Shown here piece by piece: positions 11,349 through 63,584 of a DNA stretch of 64,000 nt. The notes beneath the pieces were generated by a model. That model searched no databases and was not told the origin of the DNA. It saw only the letters and a list, made by a program, of their open reading frames with translations. The first letter of the stretch is position 1; every line of letters starts with the position of its first letter. Location: IMG/VR virus record IMGVR_UViG_3300023184_000076, positions 1-64,000 of that record, one strand, 5' to 3'. The stretch comes from a virus (taxonomy: Duplodnaviria; Heunggongvirae; Uroviricota; Caudoviricetes). A program made the position numbers and the translations under genes.

Positions 11349-11377
11349 AAAAAAGTGACCCCATCAAGTTAATGGGA
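11349..11377 (-). terminator. hairpin GTGACCCCatcaagttaatGGGAGTCAC plus U-run
   Basis: Overlaps stop of RNA ligase gene. Confidence 0.5.
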
Positions 11378-12502
11378 GTCACCCACGTTATTTTTTTCAC
11401 CATAGATCAAGTAGTCAGGGTTGATTACTTTAGAAACCTTTCTACGGTCACCAGTTACGGATTTCACAACTATACCTTCGTGAGGAACTTTAGTACCTTC
11501 TATGAAGTTACCGAAGACGTATTTGTCTTGTTCTTCTTTATCCCAATTACCTTGGTATAACAACTCAACCTGTGGTAACTCTAAACAATCAAAGTGTACA
11601 GTTTCATTTATGTATGGTTGGTATTCTCCATCAACTTCAACATCAAATCCTACAAACTTAACATCAGTCAAACCGTACTCGTAGTTTTTTTGTATACCCG
11701 CACCATATATCTCTCCGTATATAACAACACCATCAGTTAAGTTAAATGGTTCGTAAGTATCTTTTACGTGAGCCCACAACTTACCTCTTATATCGTAGTT
11801 GTTCGCCACAGTTTTCCACACATCAGTATCGTAGAAACCTTGAGAGTCAGATCCTTTTTCAACGTTGTGAGAACCATAGACATATTCAAACGCCGCCCAT
11901 TGATTACCAAATAGTACTTTAACACGATCCCACAAAGAAAGTTTTTTCTTTCTAACTATTCCGTAACGAGCGTTAGTTCCGTGAAGTTTACGAGTTATAA
12001 CAACTTCATCTTCCTCATTGAACATATCAGGTACATTCTTTTGGTTAGGGAATTTGTAGTAAACTTTGAAGTTAGGGTTTTGGTGGTATTTTATTTTACG
12101 TCCACCAACACTCAACTGAACGGTCTTAACTGGTGGTTCGTATTTGGTAACTCCCAATATAGTCATCATGTCATCACCATCATTAACATTGTTCTCCAAT
12201 GATTTTGGTGCCAAATATTTGAATGGTATTAACAAACACTCAGAGTAAACTCCACGAAGTTTTACAGTACGAACTCTTTGACCTTTACGAAGGTAGTTAG
12301 TAACTTCCATCAAGTCAGATAATGCCTGAGGTATTACCGCATCTGTGGTCGCAACAACAACCTTATCTCCAGATTGGTATTCACCTTTTTTAGTTATGGC
12401 GTTCCATCCACCAACTAACACTTGTTCTATGTTATCCGCCCCTTCTATTGGTTTAACCTCTCCGATTACACCAACGTAACATACACTATTTTGATTTTCC
12501 AT
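11369..12502 (-). CDS. ATP-dependent RNA ligase, Rnl2-like nucleotidyltransferase
   Basis: Motif I KLHGTN (KxHGxN lysine-adenylate site as in T4 Rnl2 KIHGTN), motif IV EGIVVK, motif V K..KVINPDY. Confidence 0.65.
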   Translation of the reverse strand: MENQNSVCYVGVIGEVKPIEGADNIEQVLVGGWNAITKKGEYQSGDKVVVATTDAVIPQALSDLMEVTNYLRKGQRVRTVKLRGVYSECLLIPFKYLAPKSLENNVNDGDDMMTILGVTKYEPPVKTVQLSVGGRKIKYHQNPNFKVYYKFPNQKNVPDMFNEEDEVVITRKLHGTNARYGIVRKKKLSLWDRVKVLFGNQWAAFEYVYGSHNVEKGSDSQGFYDTDVWKTVANNYDIRGKLWAHVKDTYEPFNLTDGVVIYGEIYGAGIQKNYEYGLTDVKFVGFDVEVDGEYQPYINETVHFDCLELPQVELLYQGNWDKEEQDKYVFGNFIEGTKVPHEGIVVKSVTGDRRKVSKVINPDYLIYGEKNNVGDSH

Positions 12503-22919: not shown

Positions 22920-22995
22920 AATTCACAAATAGTGTGATCCCCAACCATATTGTCGTATTCATCTTCCATCGTAATAAATACTAAGTAAAAAGGAA

Positions 22996-23021
22996 AACTC
23001 CCACTGATTATAGTGGGAGTT
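22996..23021. terminator. perfect 10-bp hairpin AACTCCCACTgattatAGTGGGAGTT, bidirectional
   Basis: Between convergent SLT and MTase genes. Confidence 0.6.
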
Positions 23022-23856
23022 CTTTTATTTGTTCTAATGCCTTGAAGTAATTAATTCTTGTCTCGGCTATTTGTTTGTAATTTTCACTTAACTCAATCCC
23101 TAACCATCTACGTTCCAATATCTGTGCTGCAACTAATGTTGTTCCTGAACCAGCAAATGGGTCCAATATTACATCGTTTTTGTAGGATAGTATCTTAATC
23201 GCTTTGGTGGGTATGTCCATTGAGAAAGTCGCCTTGGTGAGTGATTTAGTATCTGCAAAGTAATTCCACTGACCAAACACAAGTTCCATAAACTCTTTCT
23301 TATCCGTCTCCTCATATACAATTTTTTTCTTTAATGACCCATCTTCCTGTTCAATTTCAGTTGGTGTCCCTTTCCACTGAGGTTCTCCTTTAACCTTTTT
23401 AATGTGGTGTTTTTTGTATGCCAATATCACACACTCCTTTGGATTATATATATACGGACTTGATGGGCTCATCCAAGATCCCCACGCAGTAGTTTTACTT
23501 CTATGTGGCGACTGTTCTTCAAGATCAACGATACCAAAGAACCCAAATCCAATTTCTTTCATTATCTGATACATCTCAGAAACGAAGAAGATTCGACCAC
23601 CTTTTTTCTGACGATTGATTTCATACGGAATATTCAAGGCAATTCTTCCATCATCTTTTAGTACGTTGTAAGCCTCGGTTAACCAATTTTTTGCAAATAC
23701 CAAATACTCATCAAATTCAACATCGTCGTCGTGTACATCATAAGCAATACCAACACCATATGGTGGTGATGTACAAATTAAGTCCACAGATCCCTCAGGT
23801 AATGTTTTCATTACCTCAATACAATCCCCATTTATTATTTTTCCTGTTTCTATCAT
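23008..23856 (-). CDS. DNA N6-adenine/N4-cytosine methyltransferase (beta class, orphan)
   Basis: Motif IV DLICTSPPY near N-terminus, motif I LDPFAGSGTT near C-terminus. Confidence 0.8.
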   Translation of the reverse strand: MIETGKIINGDCIEVMKTLPEGSVDLICTSPPYGVGIAYDVHDDDVEFDEYLVFAKNWLTEAYNVLKDDGRIALNIPYEINRQKKGGRIFFVSEMYQIMKEIGFGFFGIVDLEEQSPHRSKTTAWGSWMSPSSPYIYNPKECVILAYKKHHIKKVKGEPQWKGTPTEIEQEDGSLKKKIVYEETDKKEFMELVFGQWNYFADTKSLTKATFSMDIPTKAIKILSYKNDVILDPFAGSGTTLVAAQILERRWLGIELSENYKQIAETRINYFKALEQIKELPL

Positions 23857-23866
23857 TTCTTTTTTT

Positions 23867-24058
23867 TTAATTTAGTAATGAATTATCTAATTGTATATCT
23901 AAACCAAACAACGATTTTTCAATAACTTCACTTATTGTTAAAGTTGGATCATCTTTCATAATATTTAAACAAACAAGTAATAATTCGTTTGTCCTATTAG
24001 TTTGATTCGTAAATTTAATTACATAATCGACATATTTTAAATCATCAATATATTTCAT
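23867..24058 (-). CDS. hypothetical protein (63 aa)
   Basis: ORF. Confidence 0.4.
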   Translation of the reverse strand: MKYIDDLKYVDYVIKFTNQTNRTNELLLVCLNIMKDDPTLTISEVIEKSLFGLDIQLDNSLLN

Positions 24059-24069
24059 AATTAATTTTT

Positions 24070-24276
24070 TTATTTAATACTTTCTAAAAAATCCCACACA
24101 TTATTTGAAAACTCTTCAAAAAGGTCCCCATCCTCATCATCCGATAAGTCAACAATATTTTCATCAACACAAAAATCAACAATTATTTCATGTACTTCAC
24201 CAAGTGTTTGTTCATCATTTTTTAATCCTTCATATAGATTAAGGATCTGATTTTTTTGTTCTTCCGTTAATTCCAT
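24070..24276 (-). CDS. hypothetical acidic protein (68 aa)
   Basis: ORF. Confidence 0.4.
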   Translation of the reverse strand: MELTEEQKNQILNLYEGLKNDEQTLGEVHEIIVDFCVDENIVDLSDDEDGDLFEEFSNNVWDFLESIK

Positions 24277-24278
24277 CT

Positions 24279-24551
24279 TTATTTATTTTTTAATGTTTCT
24301 ATGTGATGTTCTAAATACCATAACGCTTTTTTAAGGTCCTGTAATTCTTTATCCGAATCTTTCTTACCCGCCCTTGATATATACTTTACCGTATTTCCTA
24401 ATGAGAATCCTAATTCCCAAGCATCAATTACTTTGATTGCCTCATAAGGGTTATCTTCTCCTCCGTAATGTTGGGGGTGATTAACTTGTTCTATTTTTGG
24501 TGGGGGGCACATACAAAGTACGTTAGCTCCACATACACATTCTTTTTCCAT
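24279..24551 (-). CDS. DUF3310-family phage protein
   Basis: PQHYGGEDNPYEAIKVIDAW ... GNTVKYISRAGKK ... DLKKALWYLE. Confidence 0.65.
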   Translation of the reverse strand: MEKECVCGANVLCMCPPPKIEQVNHPQHYGGEDNPYEAIKVIDAWELGFSLGNTVKYISRAGKKDSDKELQDLKKALWYLEHHIETLKNK

Positions 24552-25669
24552 TAGTCTTCTCTATATTCTTTTAATAATTCATCATTTGAAATGGTCCCAT
24601 ATTTCTCATTAAGACCTTCCATATCAACATCCTTATTCATCATTATTTTAACATCGTAGATTTGATCGGTAGTTATTAAAGATATGTCAATTTCTTTAAT
24701 AATTTTGTATGGGTCAGCATTTGATCCAGGTCTTCTATCCTCAACATAACCTTTCCAATTTTTTGCGGTATCTCTTGGAATTCGAATTGATGCCCCACGA
24801 TCTGAAACCCCCCAACTAAATTTATCAATTGATTGTGTTTCAAATTTACCAGTTAAACGGAGATTGTTATCTGACCCGTAAGCTTTTATATGTGCTTCAT
24901 GTCTTACCTCAAACGCATTAAACAATGATATAAAATATTTTTCGTTACCATCATTTCTCATTTTATCTGTTGAGAAGTTCGTATGAAGTCCAGACCCGTT
25001 CCATTCCCCTTTTTGAATTGGTTTTGGATGTAGAATAATCCTATAATTATATTTTTCAGAAATTTTAAACAAAAAGTACCTAGTCATCCACAAATCATCA
25101 CCCGCTTTTAATTTACCTTTTGTAAACACTTGGTATTCCCATTGACCTAACGCAACCTCAGCGTTAATCCCTGTAATGTCAATTCCATATTTTAAACACA
25201 TATCCATATGTTCTTCAACAAAATCTCTTCCGGCAACATATTCTCCAACACCACAATAATATTTACCTTGTGGTTCCAAGTTATTTTCGTCGTGACCTAA
25301 AATACATTTGTTTTTTCTATCGTAGATAAAATATTCTTGTTCAAACCCAAACCACAAATCTTCTTGATCTCCAATTAGTTCTGATCTTGTATTAGTTTCG
25401 TGTGGAGTACCATCAGAATTCATTACTTCACACAACACGTAAATTGTATTTGTATGATCAGAAAAATAATGTCTAACAGGTTTTAAAATACAATCAGAAC
25501 TATTACCTTCCGCTTGTAATGTTGATGACCCATCAAAGTTCCATTCAGGAAAATTATTTAGAACTAAACAGTTTTTAATTTGTTCATAGTCCATAATTTT
25601 AACTTTACTTCTTAAATTTGGTTCAGGCGTATACCCATCAATCCACACATATTCTAACTTAACTTTCAT
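24551..25669 (-). CDS. glnA: glutamine synthetase, type II-like (372 aa)
   Basis: N-terminal signature FDGSSTLQAEGNSSDCIL and ATP-site signature KPIQKGEWNGSGLHTNFS both match the GS PROSITE patterns; EYVWIDG N-terminus. Confidence 0.85.
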   Translation of the reverse strand: MKVKLEYVWIDGYTPEPNLRSKVKIMDYEQIKNCLVLNNFPEWNFDGSSTLQAEGNSSDCILKPVRHYFSDHTNTIYVLCEVMNSDGTPHETNTRSELIGDQEDLWFGFEQEYFIYDRKNKCILGHDENNLEPQGKYYCGVGEYVAGRDFVEEHMDMCLKYGIDITGINAEVALGQWEYQVFTKGKLKAGDDLWMTRYFLFKISEKYNYRIILHPKPIQKGEWNGSGLHTNFSTDKMRNDGNEKYFISLFNAFEVRHEAHIKAYGSDNNLRLTGKFETQSIDKFSWGVSDRGASIRIPRDTAKNWKGYVEDRRPGSNADPYKIIKEIDISLITTDQIYDVKIMMNKDVDMEGLNEKYGTISNDELLKEYRED

Positions 25670-25848
25670 TTGTTTTCATTTATATATTTTATTATTTCTT
25701 CCTCATTTTTCCCTTCATTAAAAATTCTATACACATTGCGTGAAAATTCATCCGTAGACATTACTGCGTCGGCATCTAAATAAGTCATAATATCTTCTAA
25801 GTGAATAAGGATGTTTTCTTTCTTTAAAAATCTTTTATTAAAACCCAT
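25666..25848 (-). CDS. hypothetical protein (60 aa)
   Basis: ORF overlapping GS start by 4 nt. Confidence 0.4.
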   Translation of the reverse strand: MGFNKRFLKKENILIHLEDIMTYLDADAVMSTDEFSRNVYRIFNEGKNEEEIIKYINENK

Positions 25849-25850
25849 GT

Positions 25851-26639
25851 TTAATCTTCTAAAAATTCTTTTTCTTTTTTCTTGTCCTCTTGTTCAATAC
25901 TGTAATTTCTCGCTTGATTAATTAACATTATTGTTTTTCTTTTGAATAGTGGTAATAATGTTTCTTCAATCGGGAAATCACCTTTGCTTATCATTTCTAA
26001 TACCGGTAACTTTGTTTTATTTTCGGTCTCAGAAAATGTAGTTATTATCTTTGGTATTGTCAATTTGATTTTATCATCACAATAAATTAATTTAACACTT
26101 GTCTTACTTTCAGGTGATCTTTTAGCTGCCGGAGATACTTCATACTCCCAAACATAATACTTATTGTCTCTCTTATCTAAATGAAAGAAGAAACCTTTGT
26201 TAGATAAAATTTCCTTTTTGTTCTTTCTGTATTTTGTTTCAATACTATCGTAAACTATTGTCCACACAGATTTTGCAATGTTGAAGTATTCTAACATTCT
26301 TGGTGCGGTGTATTGTAAAATTTTTGTGAATTCTTCATACTCATCAGTTGACATCTCAGGGACATTTTTAACTTTAAGATCTTTCACTAAAAGTTCGTCA
26401 TCAACTGAATTAAATTTCTTATTTGTATAAATAATTTTCTTATCCCTGATAAGTGTTTGTATGTTTGCTAAATGTAATGATAATTCTATAAACCCAGGAT
26501 AAAGTTCCATGTTATCTAACTTTTCACCCATACGTTGGAAATATGAAAGTAACTTATATTCTTTATGTTCCCTGTCAATTGGCCTTTCGAACATCCAATC
26601 GGTGCCCATTACAAATTCTATTTTTTTCTTTCTCGTCAT
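25851..26639 (-). CDS. hypothetical protein (262 aa)
   Basis: ORF. Confidence 0.55.
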   Translation of the reverse strand: MTRKKKIEFVMGTDWMFERPIDREHKEYKLLSYFQRMGEKLDNMELYPGFIELSLHLANIQTLIRDKKIIYTNKKFNSVDDELLVKDLKVKNVPEMSTDEYEEFTKILQYTAPRMLEYFNIAKSVWTIVYDSIETKYRKNKKEILSNKGFFFHLDKRDNKYYVWEYEVSPAAKRSPESKTSVKLIYCDDKIKLTIPKIITTFSETENKTKLPVLEMISKGDFPIEETLLPLFKRKTIMLINQARNYSIEQEDKKKEKEFLED

Positions 26640-28438: not shown

Positions 28439-28462
28439 ATCGGTGATTGGTTAAAAAGTTGA

Positions 28463-28489
28463 GGTGGGAAATATTTTCCACCTTTTTTT
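28463..28489 (+). terminator. hairpin GGTGGGAAATA/TATTTTCCACC plus T7
   Basis: After small + ORF. Confidence 0.5.
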
Positions 28490-36069: not shown

Positions 36070-36243
36070 ATGGAAGAAGAAACATACAACAAAACAGAAG
36101 CAACCCAAGTTACAGGTTGTAGAAAATGTAATCAAACCACAGGGAAAACACAAAAATTTGTTTTTATTACCGGTGGTATCATGTTTGCATTATCAATATA
36201 TGGGGCGGTTTCCTTATATAAAGACATTATGTCTTTATTTTAA
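36070..36243 (+). CDS. small membrane protein (57 aa, ...CRKCNQ...FVFITGGIMFALSIYGAVSLY), not in track
   Basis: Own translation. Confidence 0.3.
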   Translation: MEEETYNKTEATQVTGCRKCNQTTGKTQKFVFITGGIMFALSIYGAVSLYKDIMSLF

Positions 36244-37148
36244 GGTCTATCAAACCTAACAATCTGATTAATTAAAAGATCACCAATTTGTCCTGCTCTA
36301 AACCCTTTACCTTTAACTCTCAAAGGTTTTGAGGAATCAAAAAATTTAGGTAATTTAATATTTAATTCACCATCAGGATGAGGTATGTTGATATCCTCTT
36401 TCATAAGATCTTCATAGTTCAAGTAAGAATTATATATTAAATGTGGACCATTCTTAAAGAAACCATTTTCTTCCACTAAATTAATCCTTATTACCAAATC
36501 CCCGAACCTACCACTTCTAAAATCACCAACACCTGACATTTTTATGAACTGACCATCCTCAATCCCATGTGGTATTTTAACTTCAACTGTTTTCATTTCA
36601 TCTTTAGTCTCTGATCCATTACAAGCATAACAAGCATTTATGGTGATTTTACCTGTACCAGAACAAGTATCACAACTCATATTAACAACTTGTATAAACA
36701 TACCTGTACCCACTTGTCTCATTACACTACCAACACCGTCACAGGTTGTACATACTTTCTTTTCACCTCCCGTACCACCACAAGAATTACAATTAGTTTT
36801 TCTCTTATATGTTATTTGTTTGTTTCTACTTAAAAATGAATCCAACACACCTATGTTAACCGTTATAACACTACTGTGATTATCCTGTCTTTGTCGTTGT
36901 TGATTGAACGAATGAAACATATCGGCAAAATTACCACCAAATGGGTTATTCCGTTGATTATCGTATTGTTTTCGTTTACTTTCGTCTCCAATCGTATCAT
37001 AAGCGGCTGAGATCTTTTTAAACATCTCACCATCCCCACCTTTATCTGGATGATTTTCTTTGGCTAGGTTTCTATACGCCTTCTTAATGTCTTCTTGCGT
37101 CGCCTTTTCATCAACACCTAAAACCTCATAATAGTTATCATTATTCAT
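36240..37148 (-). CDS. dnaJ: DnaJ/Hsp40 co-chaperone
   Basis: J-domain with HPD (DYYEVLGV...HPDK), four CxxCxGxG zinc-finger repeats, C-terminal domain. Confidence 0.9.
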   Translation of the reverse strand: MNNDNYYEVLGVDEKATQEDIKKAYRNLAKENHPDKGGDGEMFKKISAAYDTIGDESKRKQYDNQRNNPFGGNFADMFHSFNQQRQRQDNHSSVITVNIGVLDSFLSRNKQITYKRKTNCNSCGGTGGEKKVCTTCDGVGSVMRQVGTGMFIQVVNMSCDTCSGTGKITINACYACNGSETKDEMKTVEVKIPHGIEDGQFIKMSGVGDFRSGRFGDLVIRINLVEENGFFKNGPHLIYNSYLNYEDLMKEDINIPHPDGELNIKLPKFFDSSKPLRVKGKGFRAGQIGDLLINQIVRFDRP

Positions 37149-46889: not shown

Positions 46890-47690
46890 TTATAAGTAAT
46901 CAAATAGTTCTGAACTTTCATTTCTCAATCTTCTAAGGGCTCTTTCCTTGATCTGTCTAACTCGTTCTTTAGTTAAACCAAAGTCACCCCCAATATCTTC
47001 AAGTGTTCTTGGTGTTCCACTTAACCCGAAGTAATCCTCAATGATCACTTTCTCTCTGTCATCTAACACATTCAATAAAGATAATAATTTGTCTTTCAAA
47101 ATGTCTTTGGTGTTAAATCCTGCATCAGGAGCAAGTGCGTCAGGGTTTGCAATCATATCAACCAACGTATCACCTTCTTCATTGATTGTCATGTCCAAAT
47201 CAATCATTGATGGTAATGAAGTAAACTTAGACTCTAATTCTTTACCTGTGATCTCAATTTCTTTCTTAGCCTTATGTAAGTCCTGAACAACATTAACAGG
47301 GAGTCTAATTGTTCTTGAATTATCATTTAGTGACTGTATGATCGATTGTTTAACCCACCAAACCGCATATGATATAAAACGTAAATCTTTATGCCAATCA
47401 AAATGTTTAATCGCTTTCATCAAACCTAAATTACCCTCAGCAATAAGATCAGATAAATCTAAACCTTGATTTTGATACTGTTTTGCCACCGTAATAACAA
47501 AACGTAAATTACCAACTAATAACTCAGACTCAATTTGTTCTCTCTCACGTTTTGAAGTGTCCTCAGACTTCATCTTAAGAGCAAGTTCTTTCTCTCTGTC
47601 AGGTGTCATTACTTTTATTCTACGAATATCTTTCAGATAGTGTTGAATCTCTTCTTGATTAATTGGAATCCCTAGGTTTTTGTCTTTCAT
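46890..47690 (-). CDS. RNA polymerase sigma-70 family factor
   Basis: Region 2 (GNLGLMKAIKHFDWHKDLRFISYAVWWVKQSI) and region 4.2 HTH (LEDIGGDFGLTKERVRQIKERALRRLR). Confidence 0.85.
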   Translation of the reverse strand: MKDKNLGIPINQEEIQHYLKDIRRIKVMTPDREKELALKMKSEDTSKREREQIESELLVGNLRFVITVAKQYQNQGLDLSDLIAEGNLGLMKAIKHFDWHKDLRFISYAVWWVKQSIIQSLNDNSRTIRLPVNVVQDLHKAKKEIEITGKELESKFTSLPSMIDLDMTINEEGDTLVDMIANPDALAPDAGFNTKDILKDKLLSLLNVLDDREKVIIEDYFGLSGTPRTLEDIGGDFGLTKERVRQIKERALRRLRNESSELFDYL

Positions 47691-54670: not shown

Positions 54671-55525
54671 TTATTTTGTCAAATACTTTTTCATATCCAT
54701 TTCAAGAATTGTATTAATAGTTTTCTTTCCAACTCTATGTTCCACAAATTCTCTATCTTCTGTTAATAACACAACAATACATCCCATCAGTTTTATGTTC
54801 TCATATTTTGTTCCCTCCAACATCTTTAATAATAACTTACCATAAAAAGGTAATTGTGTGTTGTAGTGACCAAGAGCATTATCGGGTAAATCCTCAAATG
54901 GTCTTTTCATTGGTTTTGTGTAATTATTCTTTTCAAAGTTTTTAGGTTTGTTTGTTTTCCAATCCGTAATCAAAATACCAAGATCACCATTTGTACCAAT
55001 AATCAACCACACCTTATCGGGTTGTCCTGTGTACCCCAATTCAGGGTGTCCTAAAACCATCTCCGTATCAAGTAAGATACAGTTACGTTCTTTTATTAAA
55101 TCAATGTACCGTTTACCGGCAATAACCATTGTGTCTCCTTTAATTATTTGTTCTGCATCACATTCATAAATTGGTTGTCGTACTTCTTTATCAATTCCGA
55201 ATTCTTCCAACGTATGTTTCTCTAATATGAAGTGAACACGAGATCCCATGTTTGTAGAGTATGTTCCAGCATTTGCCCATTCCTCTAACAATCGTTGTTG
55301 TTCATAAGGATCACCATTTGCTTTCCTATATGAAATTCCCTCAGAATCAAATTCAGTATAGAATAATTTCATTACTTTAGAAACCGAAGGAAAATCATCC
55401 CTTAATTTACCATTAATATCCAACATTGTATATTTGTGAGCGTCTTCCTCAAATGTTAGTTGGAACTCTTTTTGTTTTTCTGAGATGATTTCTCTAATCT
55501 CTTCCGCTATTTTTTTTAAATCCAT
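54671..55525 (-). CDS. putative PD-(D/E)XK-family nuclease
   Basis: LDTEMV ... QPDKVW ... ITDWKTN consistent with D...(D/E)xK core; weak. Confidence 0.4.
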   Translation of the reverse strand: MDLKKIAEEIREIISEKQKEFQLTFEEDAHKYTMLDINGKLRDDFPSVSKVMKLFYTEFDSEGISYRKANGDPYEQQRLLEEWANAGTYSTNMGSRVHFILEKHTLEEFGIDKEVRQPIYECDAEQIIKGDTMVIAGKRYIDLIKERNCILLDTEMVLGHPELGYTGQPDKVWLIIGTNGDLGILITDWKTNKPKNFEKNNYTKPMKRPFEDLPDNALGHYNTQLPFYGKLLLKMLEGTKYENIKLMGCIVVLLTEDREFVEHRVGKKTINTILEMDMKKYLTK

Positions 55526-56424
55526 TAATCTTTTAATTTTACAAAGTATTCATTTATATTTCCTCTTAAATCACACACATCTTGGTCCATAGGTAAATGA
55601 ACAATCTTAATTCGTTCATACAACTCACCACCATTAAGTTCACGATATAGTTTAATCGCATTACTCCAAGCATCACCATCAAGAGCAATAATTACATCTC
55701 CCTTAGATTTCATGTATATTTTTTCAAATAAGATCTCCGACATATGTTTACCTAACATCGGAATGGAGTTATCTAAGAAAAACCCATCAAATACTCCTTC
55801 AACTAAATAAATGTCTTTATCCCAATCTATTAACCTTTCGTTGAAGATGATTTTATCTTTCTCCGCTTCAGGGTTCTTATATTTAAATTTACTTTTTGTG
55901 TCCCAACTACGGGCAACATAGTAATTTAATTCTCCATCACTATCGTATGATGGGACGACAATGCGACCTGTATGACTACCACGATCACAAAAGCCAATAT
56001 TATATTTCTTAATGATTTCATCCGTTATTCCCCGACTTTTTAAATAATTATATGCTTGTCTTCTAACAGGGTACACCGGACTTGATTCCGTAAATAAGGT
56101 GAATCCCTCAGGAAGTGTTAATTTTTTTGTTCTTTTTTGTCTTGGTTGTACCGTCTCAGGTTTTAAGACATTATATAATTTTTTTAATTTTTTGTTTCCA
56201 TACTTATCAAAAAGTTTACCCAAAGATCCATGTGTTCCATCTATATCACCACAAGACCAACATTTATAAACATTATTTACGTAATTTATTTCTAAATTAT
56301 GTTTATTTCTACCCTCATCACAGACGGGGCAGTTAAATGATATCTGACCCTTATTGGGATAGTGTAGACCATGGTCACCCAAAAGATCCTCCAATAACTC
56401 AACAATCGCATCATTTTCTTCCAT
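55525..56424 (-). CDS. DNA primase (CHC2 zinc finger + TOPRIM)
   Basis: CPVCDEG...H...CWSCG zinc finger; TOPRIM LVEGVFDGF and ALDGDAW. Confidence 0.7.
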   Translation of the reverse strand: MEENDAIVELLEDLLGDHGLHYPNKGQISFNCPVCDEGRNKHNLEINYVNNVYKCWSCGDIDGTHGSLGKLFDKYGNKKLKKLYNVLKPETVQPRQKRTKKLTLPEGFTLFTESSPVYPVRRQAYNYLKSRGITDEIIKKYNIGFCDRGSHTGRIVVPSYDSDGELNYYVARSWDTKSKFKYKNPEAEKDKIIFNERLIDWDKDIYLVEGVFDGFFLDNSIPMLGKHMSEILFEKIYMKSKGDVIIALDGDAWSNAIKLYRELNGGELYERIKIVHLPMDQDVCDLRGNINEYFVKLKD

Positions 56425-62243: not shown

Positions 62244-63584
62244 TTAAGCCCTAGTTTCACTAAATTGTTTAACAGGATTTTTAATTGTTAGATTACAACA
62301 TTCACAATTATTTAAGATCGCTTTCTCAATAATTACATTAGTTGTTCGATTAACCGAATAACAATTAACTAAAGGAGTAATCGGATTTATTGTGTCTGTA
62401 AATGTACCACTAACAGTTGTCGTAGAATTAAAAGTTAATGAGTTCCAAGTGGTAACATTAGTATTTGTATAAACAGATCCTGAATCACAAGGGTTAAACG
62501 CAACACTCGTACTTAACATAGGTGATGGTGTTGTAATAGGTGACCCATTAACAATAAGAGTAACCACATTATTGTATACCGCTACGGTTGGTGATGGTGC
62601 CACTTTAAATACACTATTATGTTTTAAATCAAAAGTGATAGACGCACCAACAGGTAATGTAGGTGTCACATTTATATTAAATGAGTTAGGTCCCGTTGAG
62701 ACCAAAGCAATTTGATATGTTTGATTAGGTGGGGGAGCCAATAATGTAACACTTTGTGTTGTTGTTATGTTATTTGAGTCTTTCACTTTAACAGAATAAA
62801 TTCCACCAGATAAATTAGTAAACACAGGACTCGATTGATATGTAGTCCCACCATTAATTGAATATTGGTATGACGGTGTCCCGCCATTTGCAGTTATGAT
62901 AATACTACCATTACTACCACAAGTTGGTGATTGACTACTTATTGACATATTAACTATAGGATTATCAATACATAGTCCTTCTGTTACCGTAATAATAAAT
63001 GTCCCCGAATAACTTCCACCTAAGAATTGCCATCCCGTTAATGGAGGTACTGATGTATTTGAATTGTATATAATACCATCACTCCATCCATCTACTAACC
63101 ATTGATTTGTAGTACCTGTACTCCAATATATATTATATAAGTCATCATCAGATACCCAAGTAGGGTATCCATTTAAATAACCATTAAATAAGAATTGATT
63201 TGTTTGATAATTTGACCCAGTAGTATCTATAAAATTCATACATAAATCACCATAAGGAGGTAATGTGGTTGTTGAGGTAGAGGTTGTTGATGTAGTTGTT
63301 GTTGCAGTTAAACTACAAATTGTATTTGCAGTAAAATCACCATAAAAATCAACGATAGTTGCATGGTAATCTCCAACACCAAGATTATCTTTTGTTGGAC
63401 CTGAACCACCTTCTTCCCAAGTAATATTATATGGTGGAGTTCCACCACTAACCATTAAACTAATTGCCCCATCATAAGATTGTGGAGAACTTGGATTAGT
63501 TGTATTACAAATAGCAGTCATTGGAAATAACGTTACTATCGCACATTCATTTACAGGTTTTATTGATATCGGTTGAGTTCCCAT
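62244..63584 (-). CDS. Thr/Ser-rich structural-type protein (Ig-like/β-rich)
   Basis: Composition, adjacency to PT-linker proteins. Confidence 0.5.
   Translation of the reverse strand: MGTQPISIKPVNECAIVTLFPMTAICNTTNPSSPQSYDGAISLMVSGGTPPYNITWEEGGSGPTKDNLGVGDYHATIVDFYGDFTANTICSLTATTTTSTTSTSTTTLPPYGDLCMNFIDTTGSNYQTNQFLFNGYLNGYPTWVSDDDLYNIYWSTGTTNQWLVDGWSDGIIYNSNTSVPPLTGWQFLGGSYSGTFIITVTEGLCIDNPIVNMSISSQSPTCGSNGSIIITANGGTPSYQYSINGGTTYQSSPVFTNLSGGIYSVKVKDSNNITTTQSVTLLAPPPNQTYQIALVSTGPNSFNINVTPTLPVGASITFDLKHNSVFKVAPSPTVAVYNNVVTLIVNGSPITTPSPMLSTSVAFNPCDSGSVYTNTNVTTWNSLTFNSTTTVSGTFTDTINPITPLVNCYSVNRTTNVIIEKAILNNCECCNLTIKNPVKQFSETRA

What the first reader, a model, noticed from the sequence alone, without database searches (positions are those of the whole stretch)
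24279..25669. Type-II-like glutamine synthetase as a phage auxiliary metabolic gene, overlapping a DUF3310 gene
Both PROSITE-type GS signatures are intact (FDGSS…D and KP…NGSGLHTNFS), so the enzyme is probably active; its length (372 aa) fits GSII, not bacterial GSI. A phage GS could boost glutamine supply for nucleotide biosynthesis during infection, or could be a moonlighting/regulatory variant. The downstream DUF3310 gene (PQHYGGEDNPYEAIKVIDAW…) shares a 1-nt start/stop overlap, implying translational coupling.
Basis: partly seen in the sequence, partly recalled or inferred. Interest (0 to 1): 0.6.

Follow-up and report, generated by a model that had tools for sequence, protein, structure and literature searches.

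The report
Phage-encoded bacterial-type glutamine synthetase gene
A large aquatic bacteriophage carries an apparently working copy of the bacterial type II glutamine synthetase, probably to keep glutamine flowing during infection; such genes have already been reported in jumbo phages, so this is a well-supported but largely ordinary example.

Summary
A 372-aa glutamine synthetase (GS) lies at 24551-25669 on the minus strand. A 90-aa DUF3310 gene follows at 24279-24551, sharing a TAATG stop/start overlap.

The GS is a bacterial-type GlnII. Both PROSITE signatures match. All 22 established metal, ATP, glutamate and ammonium-site residues are intact. The predicted fold superposes on solved GSII structures (TM about 0.8).

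It belongs to a monophyletic phage clade: at least 597 IMG/VR contigs, some about 300 kb. The clade is only 50-59% identical to any cellular GSII, has phage-like composition and is under purifying selection (dN/dS 0.11). These look like "moraphage"-type jumbo phages of Bacteroidota.

GS as an auxiliary metabolic gene in moraphages and huge phages was published in 2025, so the core finding is already known.

Possibly new details:
- a clade-specific, selected C-terminal tail (KYGTxSxxELLKEY) absent from the cellular and huge-phage GSII sequences examined;
- DUF3310 adjacency conserved in 74 of 84 loci, but absent from independent GS-carrying phages and sometimes interrupted by amino-sugar gene cassettes, so it is lineage synteny and co-expression rather than a general functional pair.

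DUF3310 is the T7 gp1.7 nucleotide-kinase domain, which fits a nucleotide-supply role. Activity and role are untested.

The parts
24551..25669 (-). Glutamine synthetase CDS (372 aa plus stop), bacterial type II (GlnII-like)
   Evidence: ORF. Pfam Gln-synt_N and Gln-synt_C. NCBIfam GlnII 3e-101. PDB GSII hits at 9e-90 to 6e-74. AF2 model pLDDT 92 with Foldseek TM 0.8 to 4bax, 2d3a and 2qc8.
25418..25657 (-). N-terminal beta-grasp domain (residues 5-84), containing PS00180 at 25484-25537 (residues 45-62) with ammonium-site residues D46 and S49
   Evidence: Pfam PF03951. PROSITE regex. Residue mapping.
24695..25372 (-). Catalytic domain (residues about 100-325). Metal ligands are E110, E112, E171, E178, H229 and E310. 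ATP and glutamate residues are W106, N224, G225, N231, S233, R238, R271, E277 (flap), R291, R296, Y308, R312 and R313. The PS00181 ATP signature lies at 24971-25024.
   Evidence: Alignment to human GLUL, whose sequence was verified identical to PDB 8dnu_A, with conservation counts over 121 clade members.
24554..24694 (-). Clade-specific C-terminal tail (residues 326-372): continuation of the terminal helix, then two short helices carrying the conserved motif KYGTISNDELLKEY (residues 356-369, 24563-24604)
   Evidence: Conserved across clade members. The motif is absent from 80 cellular GSII and 3 huge-phage GS, and present only in clade representatives. dN/dS is 0.19. pLDDT is 57-68. Cellular matches stop at residue 323-352, mostly 327-345.
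24549..24553 (-). TAATG stop/start overlap between the GS and the DUF3310 gene (1 nt shared)
   Evidence: Sequence. The same TAATG occurs in 46 of 84 related loci, and 4-, 11- or 20-nt overlaps occur in 26 more.
24279..24551 (-). DUF3310 (SaV-like, T7 gp1.7 C-terminal domain) gene, 90 aa. A Cys-rich N-terminus (CVCGANVLCMCP) lies at 24504-24539 and the DUF3310 domain at 24309-24485.
   Evidence: Pfam PF11753 5e-15. PHROG 'nucleotide kinase' families. tblastn hits 745 phage records, including the T7 gene 1.7 region and a Flavobacterium phage at 72% identity. dN/dS is 0.10.
25666..25848 (-). Conserved 60-aa ORF of unknown function immediately upstream, overlapping the GS start by 4 nt (ATGA)
   Evidence: Present upstream of the GS in 66 of 78 related loci, with the 4-nt overlap in 54. 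No Pfam or PHROG hit.
25851..26639 (-). Conserved 262-aa ORF of unknown function, upstream member of the block
   Evidence: Synteny, retained even in the deepest clade member L174. No family hit.
23008..24276 (-). Downstream genes of the same co-directional block: 68-aa ORF (24070-24276), 63-aa ORF (23867-24058) and an N6/N4 DNA methyltransferase (23008-23856)
   Evidence: Pfam N6_N4_Mtase 5e-34. Synteny.
22994..23023 (-). Strong hairpin followed by a T-run, the likely terminator closing the GS-containing gene block
   Evidence: Terminator scan: 12-bp stem, 5 GC pairs.

Best explanation
This is a catalytically competent, phage-encoded bacterial-type glutamine synthetase II. It was acquired once from bacteria by the ancestor of a widespread lineage of aquatic jumbo phages (about 300 kb, moraphage-like, probable Bacteroidota hosts) and has been retained under purifying selection. 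During infection it would condense glutamate, ammonium and ATP into glutamine. As a GSII it lacks the adenylylation and feedback apparatus of host GSI or GSIII, so it should work whatever the host's nitrogen regulation is doing. Glutamine is the amide-nitrogen donor for purine, pyrimidine, NAD and amino-sugar synthesis. The enzyme therefore most plausibly relieves a glutamine bottleneck for replicating a large genome. It is probably co-translated from one polycistronic block with a small unknown protein upstream and a gp1.7-like DUF3310 (nucleotide-kinase-type) protein downstream, inside a nucleotide and DNA-modification neighbourhood. Shown here: the identity, fold and intact active site, viral clade membership, selection and synteny. 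Inferred: enzymatic activity, independence from host regulation, the metabolic sink and translational coupling.
For: GlnII is the best model at 3e-101 and GSII structures match at 9e-90 to 6e-74. Both PROSITE signatures match. All 22 established metal, ATP, glutamate and ammonium-site residues are conserved in the window protein, 20 invariant in 121 clade members and two with a single exception each. The AF2 model has pLDDT 92 and TM about 0.8 to S. coelicolor GSII and to ligand-bound human and maize GS. At least 597 IMG/VR viral contigs encode relatives; the 80 fetched are full-length and 72-96% identical, on contigs up to 304 kb. The clade has 100/100 bootstrap support and nests among bacterial GlnII, not with eukaryotes. 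The nearest cellular sequences are only 50-59% identical. GS GC is 31.9% and GC3 22%, matching the window. dN/dS is 0.11. Neighbours include thioredoxin, glutaredoxin, NUDIX, Dam and N6/N4 methyltransferases, with ThyA in a relative. DUF3310 corresponds to the T7 gp1.7 dTMP/dGMP kinase domain (PMC9339283, PMC11897194). Genes are tightly packed or overlapping and a terminator follows the block. GS has independently been reported as an auxiliary metabolic gene in moraphages (PMC12619734) and in 247 huge phages (bioRxiv 10.1101/2025.02.27.640493).
Against: There is no biochemical or expression evidence for any phage GS. The score is below NCBIfam's GlnII equivalog cutoff (339 vs 500 bits). The 64-kb window holds no glutamine-using amidotransferase that would identify the sink. 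The conserved extra tail has no counterpart in characterised GS, so some altered behaviour is possible. Conserved ammonium-site residues do not strictly exclude other small amine substrates; from general knowledge, plant theanine synthetases are very GSII-like. No capsid or terminase gene lies in the window itself, so phage identity rests on gene content and on relatives.
Confidence: 0.68

Rival explanations
1. Regulatory or moonlighting GS. The protein mainly manipulates host nitrogen signalling, for example by raising glutamine to mimic nitrogen sufficiency, or by using the clade-specific C-terminal tail to dock onto a host or phage partner. Bulk metabolite supply would be secondary.
For: The tail (KYGTxSxxELLKEY) is conserved, under purifying selection and absent from the cellular GSII sequences examined. 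It has low pLDDT, as expected for a segment that folds on binding. A small conserved ORF is translationally linked upstream in 66 of 78 loci. From general knowledge, small GS-binding proteins such as cyanobacterial IF7/IF17 and archaeal sP26 are a precedent.
Against: Complete conservation of the catalytic machinery argues that catalysis itself is selected. The tail persists in members lacking the upstream ORF and in members lacking DUF3310, so it does not co-vary with either neighbour. No partner has been identified.
Confidence: 0.12
2. Repurposed amidoligase. The enzyme gamma-glutamylates an amine other than ammonia, such as an amino sugar, a polyamine or a modified nucleotide, as part of a DNA or glycan modification pathway encoded nearby.
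For: The GS-DUF3310 junction is a hotspot that in close relatives holds DegT aminotransferase, PglD-like acetyltransferase, PhyH dioxygenase and CmcI-like methyltransferase genes. Other relatives have a Methyltransf_24-DUF3310 fusion or ThyA next to the GS. DNA methyltransferases flank the block. From general knowledge, GS-fold enzymes acting on other amines are known (PuuA, GlnA3, theanine synthetase).
Against: Ammonium-pocket residues D46, S49, Y138 and E277 are invariant, and the protein is 42-59% identical to bona fide GS. The cassettes are present in only 6 of 84 loci, so the GS is retained without them.
Confidence: 0.07
3. Obligate two-component system. The GS and the DUF3310 protein would form a functional complex, which the overlap and synteny would reflect.
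For: Adjacency holds in 74 of 84 loci, including the deepest branch at 58% GS identity. Both genes are under strong purifying selection.
Against: Six close relatives have 1.2-3.4 kb inserted between the two genes, and two contigs of about 280 kb keep the GS with its tail but have no DUF3310 nearby. No DUF3310 lies near the GS in three huge phages or in L089. DUF3310 occurs in 745 phage records, almost all without a GS.
Confidence: 0.08
4. Not viral. The GS would be a cellular gene on a bacterial contig, or a mis-binned or chimeric assembly.
For: No structural phage genes lie in the 64-kb window.
Against: Phage-type genes flank it on both sides: homing endonucleases, SbcCD, primase, sigma factor, RNA ligase and DUF3310. 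Most ORFs have no known family. Relatives are IMG/VR viral contigs with conserved synteny, one of them 304 kb with the GS near both ends. No GTDB species genome holds a copy above 59% identity.
Confidence: 0.03

Closest known systems
Bacterial glutamine synthetase type II (GlnII; e.g. Streptomyces coelicolor GSII PDB 4bax, rhizobial GlnII, NCBIfam NF041605)
   Same: Same two-domain architecture with no N-terminal extension, and the same start (MK.KLEYVWIDG). All catalytic residues are present. The fold matches at TM 0.82-0.88 and 2.1 A rmsd to 4bax. The phage clade nests among bacterial GlnII sequences.
   Different: Only 50-59% identical to any cellular GlnII and below the equivalog cutoff. 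It carries a 47-aa or longer conserved C-terminal tail: a median of 54 residues after the DPY motif, against 15 in cellular GlnII. It is encoded by a phage.
GS auxiliary metabolic genes of moraphages and other huge or jumbo phages (Perez-Hernandez et al. 2025, PMC12619734; huge-phage collection preprint 10.1101/2025.02.27.640493)
   Same: Aquatic jumbo phages of about 300 kb with predicted Bacteroidota hosts, carrying DnaJ and a GS. These are the same kind of gene and the same proposed role.
   Different: In the passages read, those reports only list the gene. Type II assignment, active-site analysis, single-origin phylogeny, the tail and the DUF3310 context did not appear there. Marker-gene membership of this window in the moraphages was not tested. 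The GS genes of the 635-735 kb phages are only 44-55% identical, lack the tail and branch separately.
Eukaryotic GSII (human GLUL, maize GS1a, yeast Gln1)
   Same: 43% identity and identical active-site residues. Liganded structures superpose at TM about 0.8.
   Different: Eukaryotic enzymes have an N-terminal extension of about 20 aa and a different, shorter C-terminus. In the tree they group apart from the phage clade.
T7 gp1.7 nucleotide kinase and lactococcal phage SaV (DUF3310 proteins)
   Same: The downstream 90-aa protein has a full DUF3310 domain preceded by a Cys-rich segment, and it matches the T7 gene 1.7 region by tblastn.
   Different: It is half the size of gp1.7 (90 aa against 196 aa; the gp1.7 length is from general knowledge). 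No structure or activity is known for this short form. SaV is a toxic early protein sensed by AbiV, so a kinase function cannot be assumed (PMC8306868).

Membership tests
Glutamine synthetase type II (GlnII/GSII) | Gln-synt_N beta-grasp domain plus Gln-synt_C catalytic domain in a chain of about 330-380 aa | tested here: met
   Pfam hits to both domains above their gathering scores. GlnII model covered at positions 1-322 of 333.
Glutamine synthetase type II (GlnII/GSII) | PROSITE GLNA_1 and GLNA_ATP signatures | tested here: met
   Regex matches at residues 45-62 and 216-233.
Glutamine synthetase type II (GlnII/GSII) | Metal ligands, ATP/glutamate-binding arginines, Glu flap and ammonium-site Asp/Ser/Tyr | tested here: met
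   All 22 established positions are identical to human GLUL. 20 are invariant in 121 clade members, and E171 and R271 each have one exception.
Glutamine synthetase type II (GlnII/GSII) | Scores above NCBIfam's GlnII equivalog cutoff | tested here: not met
   338.8 bits against a cutoff of 500. It is still by far the best model (GSI 53 bits, GSIII 38 bits). The shortfall reflects divergence, not missing parts.
Glutamine synthetase type II (GlnII/GSII) | GSII three-dimensional fold | tested here: met
   AF2 pLDDT 92 and pTM 0.88. Foldseek top 50 hits are all GSII, with TM 0.77-0.88.
Glutamine synthetase type II (GlnII/GSII) | Phylogenetic placement inside GSII | tested here: met
   NJ tree of 130 taxa places the clade among bacterial GlnII. 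The sister group is unresolved at 13% support.
Glutamine synthetase type II (GlnII/GSII) | Decameric assembly and ATP-dependent glutamine synthesis | not testable with these tools
   Needs a multimer model or cryo-EM, and enzyme assays.
Viral auxiliary metabolic gene | Cell-derived metabolic gene embedded between viral genes on a viral genome | tested here: met
   Phage-type neighbours on both sides. At least 597 IMG/VR contigs share the synteny. No structural gene lies within the window itself.
Viral auxiliary metabolic gene | Maintained by purifying selection and ameliorated to viral composition | tested here: met
   dN/dS 0.11. GC 31.9% against 31.6% for the window.
Viral auxiliary metabolic gene | Expressed during infection and alters host metabolism | not testable with these tools
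   No cultured representative. tblastn against 50,697 phage records finds GSII-level matches only in uncultured huge phages.
Moraphages (Perez-Hernandez et al. 2025) | Aquatic jumbo phage genome up to about 307 kb with DnaJ/DnaK chaperones, a GS in some members, no RNA polymerase, and Bacteroidota host signal | tested here: inconclusive
   Consistent with membership: DnaJ at 36240-37148, relatives on 274-304 kb contigs, an SprB repeat, and the best DUF3310 hit in a Flavobacterium phage. The defining TerL, MCP and PolB phylogeny could not be run because those genes are not in the window.
DUF3310 / T7 gp1.7 nucleotide kinase | DUF3310 domain above the Pfam threshold and sequence similarity to gp1.7 | tested here: met
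   PF11753 at 55.6 bits against a cutoff of 24. tblastn hits the T7M gene 1.7 region at E 5e-5, and T7-like records annotate it as 'nucleotide kinase'.
DUF3310 / T7 gp1.7 nucleotide kinase | Full-length gp1.7 architecture and dTMP/dGMP kinase activity | tested here: inconclusive
   Only 90 aa: a Cys-rich stub plus the domain. No PDB relative. The single-sequence AF2 model is unusable at pLDDT 51. Activity is not testable here.
Translationally coupled gene pair | Stop and start codons overlap, and the overlap is conserved among relatives | tested here: met
   TAATG in the window. 72 of 84 loci have a 1-, 4-, 11- or 20-nt overlap. Actual coupling of translation is not testable here.

The most novel reading that the evidence does not exclude
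The conserved, phage-only C-terminal tail would turn this GSII into a docked component of a phage-built supply line. It would bind a phage or host partner, for example the co-translated 60-aa protein, the gp1.7-like DUF3310 protein or a glutamine-using amidotransferase or aminotransferase. Amide nitrogen would then be channelled directly into nucleotide or amino-sugar (DNA or virion modification) synthesis, or the enzyme would accept an amine other than ammonia. That would be a new regulatory or structural class of GSII rather than a plain copy of a host enzyme.
Probability: 0.1. Interest if true: 0.7.

Novelty: already known. Interest (0 to 1): 0.3.

Why it matters
The clade is abundant: at least 597 viral contigs, and more than 8000 database proteins matching the GS at E <= 1e-20, of which the best 120 are at least 70% identical. 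If active, this enzyme means that jumbo phages of aquatic Bacteroidota take over the main ammonium-assimilation step of their hosts. That is relevant to nitrogen flow in lakes and coastal waters. It would also add ammonium assimilation to the pathways that phages carry for themselves. The practical value added here is a defined, testable protein: an intact active site, a clean domain boundary, and a removable clade-specific tail. The analysis also makes clear that the DUF3310 link is lineage synteny. The concept itself is not new.

Tried and rejected
- Megablast of 20 kb of the window against 50,697 phage records gave no match, so there is no close cultured or deposited relative.
- Lengsin-type or non-catalytic GS is rejected, because all catalytic residues are conserved.
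- GSI or GSIII identity is rejected on scores: 53 and 38 bits against 339 for GlnII.
- Eukaryote-like origin is rejected by the tree.
- Recent capture from the host is rejected. No GTDB genome exceeds 59% identity and composition is fully ameliorated. The donor phylum could not be resolved (13% bootstrap for a SAR86/Gammaproteobacteria sister).
- Context look-ups for the nearest 50%-cluster representatives P0124 and P0125 returned only 1-3 kb contigs and were uninformative.
- A glutamine riboswitch or any other known RNA element was sought in Rfam. Nothing reached gathering score in the whole window. The only sub-threshold hits lie on terminator hairpins.
- The sigma-70 promoter scan was uninformative: 29 sites found against 31 expected by chance. 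Bacteroidota promoters are not covered by that scan.
- The DUF3310 protein has no PDB relative, and its single-sequence AF2 model had pLDDT 51, so it was not used.
- No tRNA genes were found in the window.
- A search for the flanking genes next to the GS in cellular genomes or independent phages found none.
Full report
OBSERVATION. The two ORFs are real and lie on the minus strand. The glutamine synthetase (GS) spans 24551-25669 (372 aa) and a 90-aa ORF spans 24279-24551. The GS stop and the next start share one base (TAATG). PROSITE GLNA_1 matches residues 45-62 and GLNA_ATP matches residues 216-233. Pfam finds Gln-synt_N and Gln-synt_C in the large ORF and DUF3310 in the small one, all above gathering scores. 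NCBIfam's best model is GlnII (3e-101, 339 bits, covering query residues 1-325), against 53 bits for GSI and 38 bits for GSIII. The score is below the strict GlnII equivalog cutoff of 500 bits.

IS THE ENZYME INTACT? The best solved relatives are all GSII: yeast 3fky (9e-90), Streptomyces coelicolor 4bax, and plant, insect and human enzymes. As a numbering reference I used the human GLUL sequence after verifying it is identical to PDB 8dnu_A. I mapped 22 residues with established roles: metal ligands (E134, E136, E196, E203, H253, E338), ATP and glutamate contacts (W130, N248, G249, N255, S257, R262, R299, R319, R324, Y336, R340, R341), the Glu305 flap, and the ammonium pocket (D63, S66, Y162). 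The roles of these residues are from general knowledge of the liganded human and maize structures. All 22 are identical in the window protein. 20 are invariant in 121 clade members, and E171 and R271 each have a single exception. An AlphaFold2 model built on a 102-sequence alignment has mean pLDDT 92 and pTM 0.88. It superposes on 4bax, human and maize GS at TM about 0.8 and 2.1-3.0 A rmsd.

WHAT GENOME IS THIS? The window has 31.6% GC, nearly all genes are on one strand and there are no tRNA genes. Most large ORFs have no known family. Recognisable genes include:
- SbcCD and primase (55525-56424);
- a sigma-70 factor (46890-47690);
- a full-length DnaJ (36240-37148);
- RNA ligase (11369-12502) together with a CCA-adding enzyme and HAD/kinase-type RNA-repair domains;
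- NUDIX, thioredoxin, glutaredoxin, Dam and N6/N4 methyltransferases;
- several homing endonucleases, and SLT and amidase lysis-type domains.

No capsid or terminase gene lies in the window, so phage identity rests on this content and on relatives. A scan of IMG/VR found at least 597 viral contigs encoding a relative of the GS. The best 80 are full-length and 72-96% identical, on contigs up to 274-304 kb. One 304-kb contig carries the gene near both ends, which suggests terminal redundancy of a complete genome. The exact window GS protein is on record in an ENA metagenome assembly, where the roughly 12 kb available around it has the same gene neighbourhood. Megablast finds nothing among 50,697 deposited phage genomes. 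By tblastn only four uncultured 635-735 kb phage records have a GSII-level match, at 44-55% identity. The picture fits the "moraphages": aquatic jumbo phages up to 307 kb with DnaJ/DnaK, no RNA polymerase and predicted Flavobacteriia hosts, 9 of 25 of which encode a GS (PMC12619734). Hints of a Bacteroidota host here are an SprB repeat protein and the best DUF3310 match, 72% identity in a Flavobacterium phage. Formal membership was not tested because the marker genes are not in the window.

ORIGIN OF THE GENE. An exhaustive search of 1.84 billion cluster representatives shows the clade's own representative first (58% identity, P0121). A few sequences follow at 53-56%, then the general GSII pool at about 48%. 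A scan of 185,579 GTDB species genomes finds nothing above 59% identity. The best 80 are spread over Bacteroidota, Gammaproteobacteria, Planctomycetota, Acidobacteriota, Verrucomicrobiota, Alphaproteobacteria and even Poseidoniales archaea. One near neighbour is a compact 326-aa GSII in a gammaproteobacterial chromosome, directly upstream of an ntrB/ntrC-like pair. Another sits on an unrelated phage-like contig with Prim-Pol, a terminase and AsnA. In a 130-taxon neighbour-joining tree (330 columns, 100 bootstraps) the phage clade is monophyletic (100/100). It nests among bacterial GlnII sequences, away from the eukaryotes. Its nominal SAR86-type sister has only 13% support. The 735-kb huge-phage GS is not part of the clade, and the huge-phage copies are more divergent (44-55% identity). 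The gene's GC (31.9%) and GC3 (22%) equal those of the phage, and dN/dS is 0.11. The simplest reading is one old acquisition of a bacterial GlnII, followed by long residence under purifying selection. The donor phylum is unresolved.

WHAT IS DIFFERENT ABOUT IT. The protein is a bacterial GlnII core without an N-terminal extension, plus a tail. After the shared (S/A)NxDP(Y/F) motif, cellular GlnII have a median of 15 residues and human GS has 24. The phage clade has a median of 54, ranging up to 107. The tail is conserved in the clade, with the motif KYGT(M/I)SN(D/E)ELLKEY near the end of the 372-aa forms and further variable extensions in 400-428-aa forms. The motif is absent from all 80 cellular GSII and from the three huge-phage proteins. 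It is present in the deepest clade representatives. The tail has dN/dS 0.19. It is modelled as a continuation of the terminal helix plus two short helices at pLDDT 57-68. It persists in members lacking the upstream 60-aa ORF and in members lacking DUF3310, so it does not depend on either neighbour. Its function is unknown.

THE DUF3310 PARTNER. Across 84 related loci, the DUF3310 gene directly follows the GS in 74:

| Arrangement | Loci |
|---|---|
| TAATG, 1-nt overlap | 46 |
| 4-nt overlap | 12 |
| 11-nt overlap | 13 |
| Other adjacent (20-nt overlap, or 1- or 12-nt gap) | 3 |
| 1.2-3.4 kb cassette inserted | 6 |
| Short gaps | 2 |
| No DUF3310 nearby (two contigs of about 280 kb) | 2 |

The deepest member, with a GS 58% identical, keeps the arrangement. 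The inserted cassettes encode DegT-type aminotransferase, PglD-like hexapeptide acetyltransferase, PhyH dioxygenase, GNAT and CmcI/TylF-like methyltransferase genes. Other relatives fuse Methyltransf_24 to DUF3310, or have thymidylate synthase downstream of the GS instead. No DUF3310 gene lies near the GS in the three huge phages or in the Prim-Pol/AsnA contig. DUF3310 itself occurs in 745 phage records, almost all without a GS. The pairing is therefore old, conserved synteny within one lineage. It is compatible with co-translation, but it is not a general or obligatory GS partnership. DUF3310 is the conserved domain of T7 gp1.7, a dTMP/dGMP kinase, and of the lactococcal early protein SaV (PMC9339283, PMC11897194, PMC8306868). 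The 90-aa form here is half the size of gp1.7, it has no solved relative, and a single-sequence model failed. It is under strong purifying selection (dN/dS 0.10).

OPERON CONTEXT. From 28216 down to 23008, eight co-directional genes are separated by at most 41 nt or overlap: 511 aa, 262 aa, 60 aa, GS, DUF3310, 68 aa, 63 aa and the N6/N4 methyltransferase. A strong hairpin with a T-run follows the last gene. The 60-aa ORF overlaps the GS start by 4 nt and is present in 66 of 78 loci. No Rfam family, including the glutamine riboswitch, is present. The sigma-70 promoter scan is at chance level.

MECHANISM. The best-supported explanation is an active GSII that makes glutamine from glutamate, NH4+ and ATP in the infected cell. 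It would be expressed with nucleotide and DNA-modification genes and would supply amide nitrogen for nucleotide synthesis, and possibly NAD or amino-sugar synthesis. As a GSII it should escape the host's GSI/GSIII-specific controls; that step is an inference from general knowledge of GS regulation. Shown here: identity, fold, active site, viral clade, selection and synteny. Inferred: activity, regulation-independence, the metabolic sink and translational coupling. The window contains no amidotransferase, so the sink is unidentified. Three rivals are not excluded but are less likely: a signalling or docking role mediated by the tail, an amidoligase acting on another amine linked to the amino-sugar cassettes, and an obligate GS-DUF3310 complex.

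NOVELTY. GS as a putative auxiliary metabolic gene is already reported for moraphages (PMC12619734). It is also reported for 247 huge phages, 215 of them from freshwater or marine habitats (bioRxiv 10.1101/2025.02.27.640493). Other metagenomic surveys also mention viral GS. In the passages of those two reports that I read, and in a library search combining 'glutamine synthetase', 'type II', 'phage' and 'GlnII', I did not find the following: explicit bacterial-GlnII typing with residue-level evidence, a single old acquisition, the clade-specific selected tail, and the DUF3310 junction acting as a cassette hotspot. These are refinements of a known phenomenon. I rate the finding real, correctly interpreted and already known in kind, with modest interest.

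Noticed in passing
L001:3266-5871, L006:1276-4681, L008:1720-2936, L011:2082-4825, L016:2847-4063, L019:4545-5761 (relatives with GS 95-96% identical): The GS-DUF3310 junction is an insertion hotspot. Cassettes of 1.2-3.4 kb encode a short DegT-type aminotransferase, a PglD-like hexapeptide acetyltransferase, a PhyH dioxygenase, a GNAT and a CmcI/TylF-like methyltransferase. They look like amino-sugar or sugar-modification genes, present in some strains and absent in the window.
   Followed up: partly
L081:8962-9795 (also L067-L072, L082-L084): In relatives with a GS 72-74% identical, the DUF3310 domain is fused to an N-terminal Methyltransf_24/CmcI-like methyltransferase (277 aa). This suggests DUF3310 can act as a module of a small-molecule or nucleotide-modifying enzyme.
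   Followed up: partly
L078:7405-8523 and L078:4446-5720 (290-kb viral contig): This clade member keeps the GS with its tail but has no DUF3310 nearby. Downstream is a 372-aa thymidylate synthase homologue, about 100 aa longer than usual ThyA. Upstream is a UvrC-like GIY-YIG protein.
   Followed up: partly
window 25666-25848 (-): A conserved 60-aa ORF with no known family overlaps the GS start by 4 nt. It accompanies the GS in 66 of 78 related loci and could be a small GS-associated factor. Not tested.
   Followed up: partly
L088:10001-10981: A compact 326-aa GSII (55% identical to the phage enzyme; its cluster has 1254 members) occupies the classical glnA position, directly upstream of an ntrB/ntrC-like two-component pair, in a marine gammaproteobacterial MAG. 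A GSII seems to have replaced GSI at that locus.
   Followed up: no
L089:5261-6223 and L089:14992-15849: An unrelated phage-like contig (Prim-Pol, terminase, glycosyltransferases, sulfatase) encodes both a 320-aa GSII (55% identical) and AsnA, the ammonia-dependent asparagine synthetase. That makes two ammonium-assimilating enzymes in one virus.
   Followed up: no
L067 and L072 (IMGVR_UViG_3300031857_000005, 304,365 bp): The GS locus appears near both ends of this contig. That suggests terminal redundancy, and so an essentially complete genome of about 300 kb for a clade member.
   Followed up: no
window 11369-12502 (-) and other ORFs not located individually: RNA-repair gene set: an RNA ligase with a PHA02142 OB domain, a PolyA_pol/CCA-adding tRNA nucleotidyltransferase, HAD_SAK_2 and AAA_33 domains. 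This suggests a counter-measure to host tRNA-cleaving defences, although the window encodes no tRNAs.
   Followed up: no
window 36240-37148 (-), 46890-47690 (-), 62244-63584 (-): A full-length DnaJ (J domain, CXXCXGXG and C-terminal domain), a phage sigma-70-family factor, and a 446-aa protein with an SprB repeat. SprB is a Bacteroidota gliding-motility adhesin motif, so this may be a host-range clue or receptor-binding protein.
   Followed up: partly
window 22994-23023 and 28461-28484: Strong GC-rich hairpins with T-runs bracket the eight-gene GS block. The first is symmetric and could terminate transcription from both strands. Weak sub-threshold Rfam hits (ylbH and greA leaders) fall on these hairpins and are probably spurious.
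   Followed up: partly
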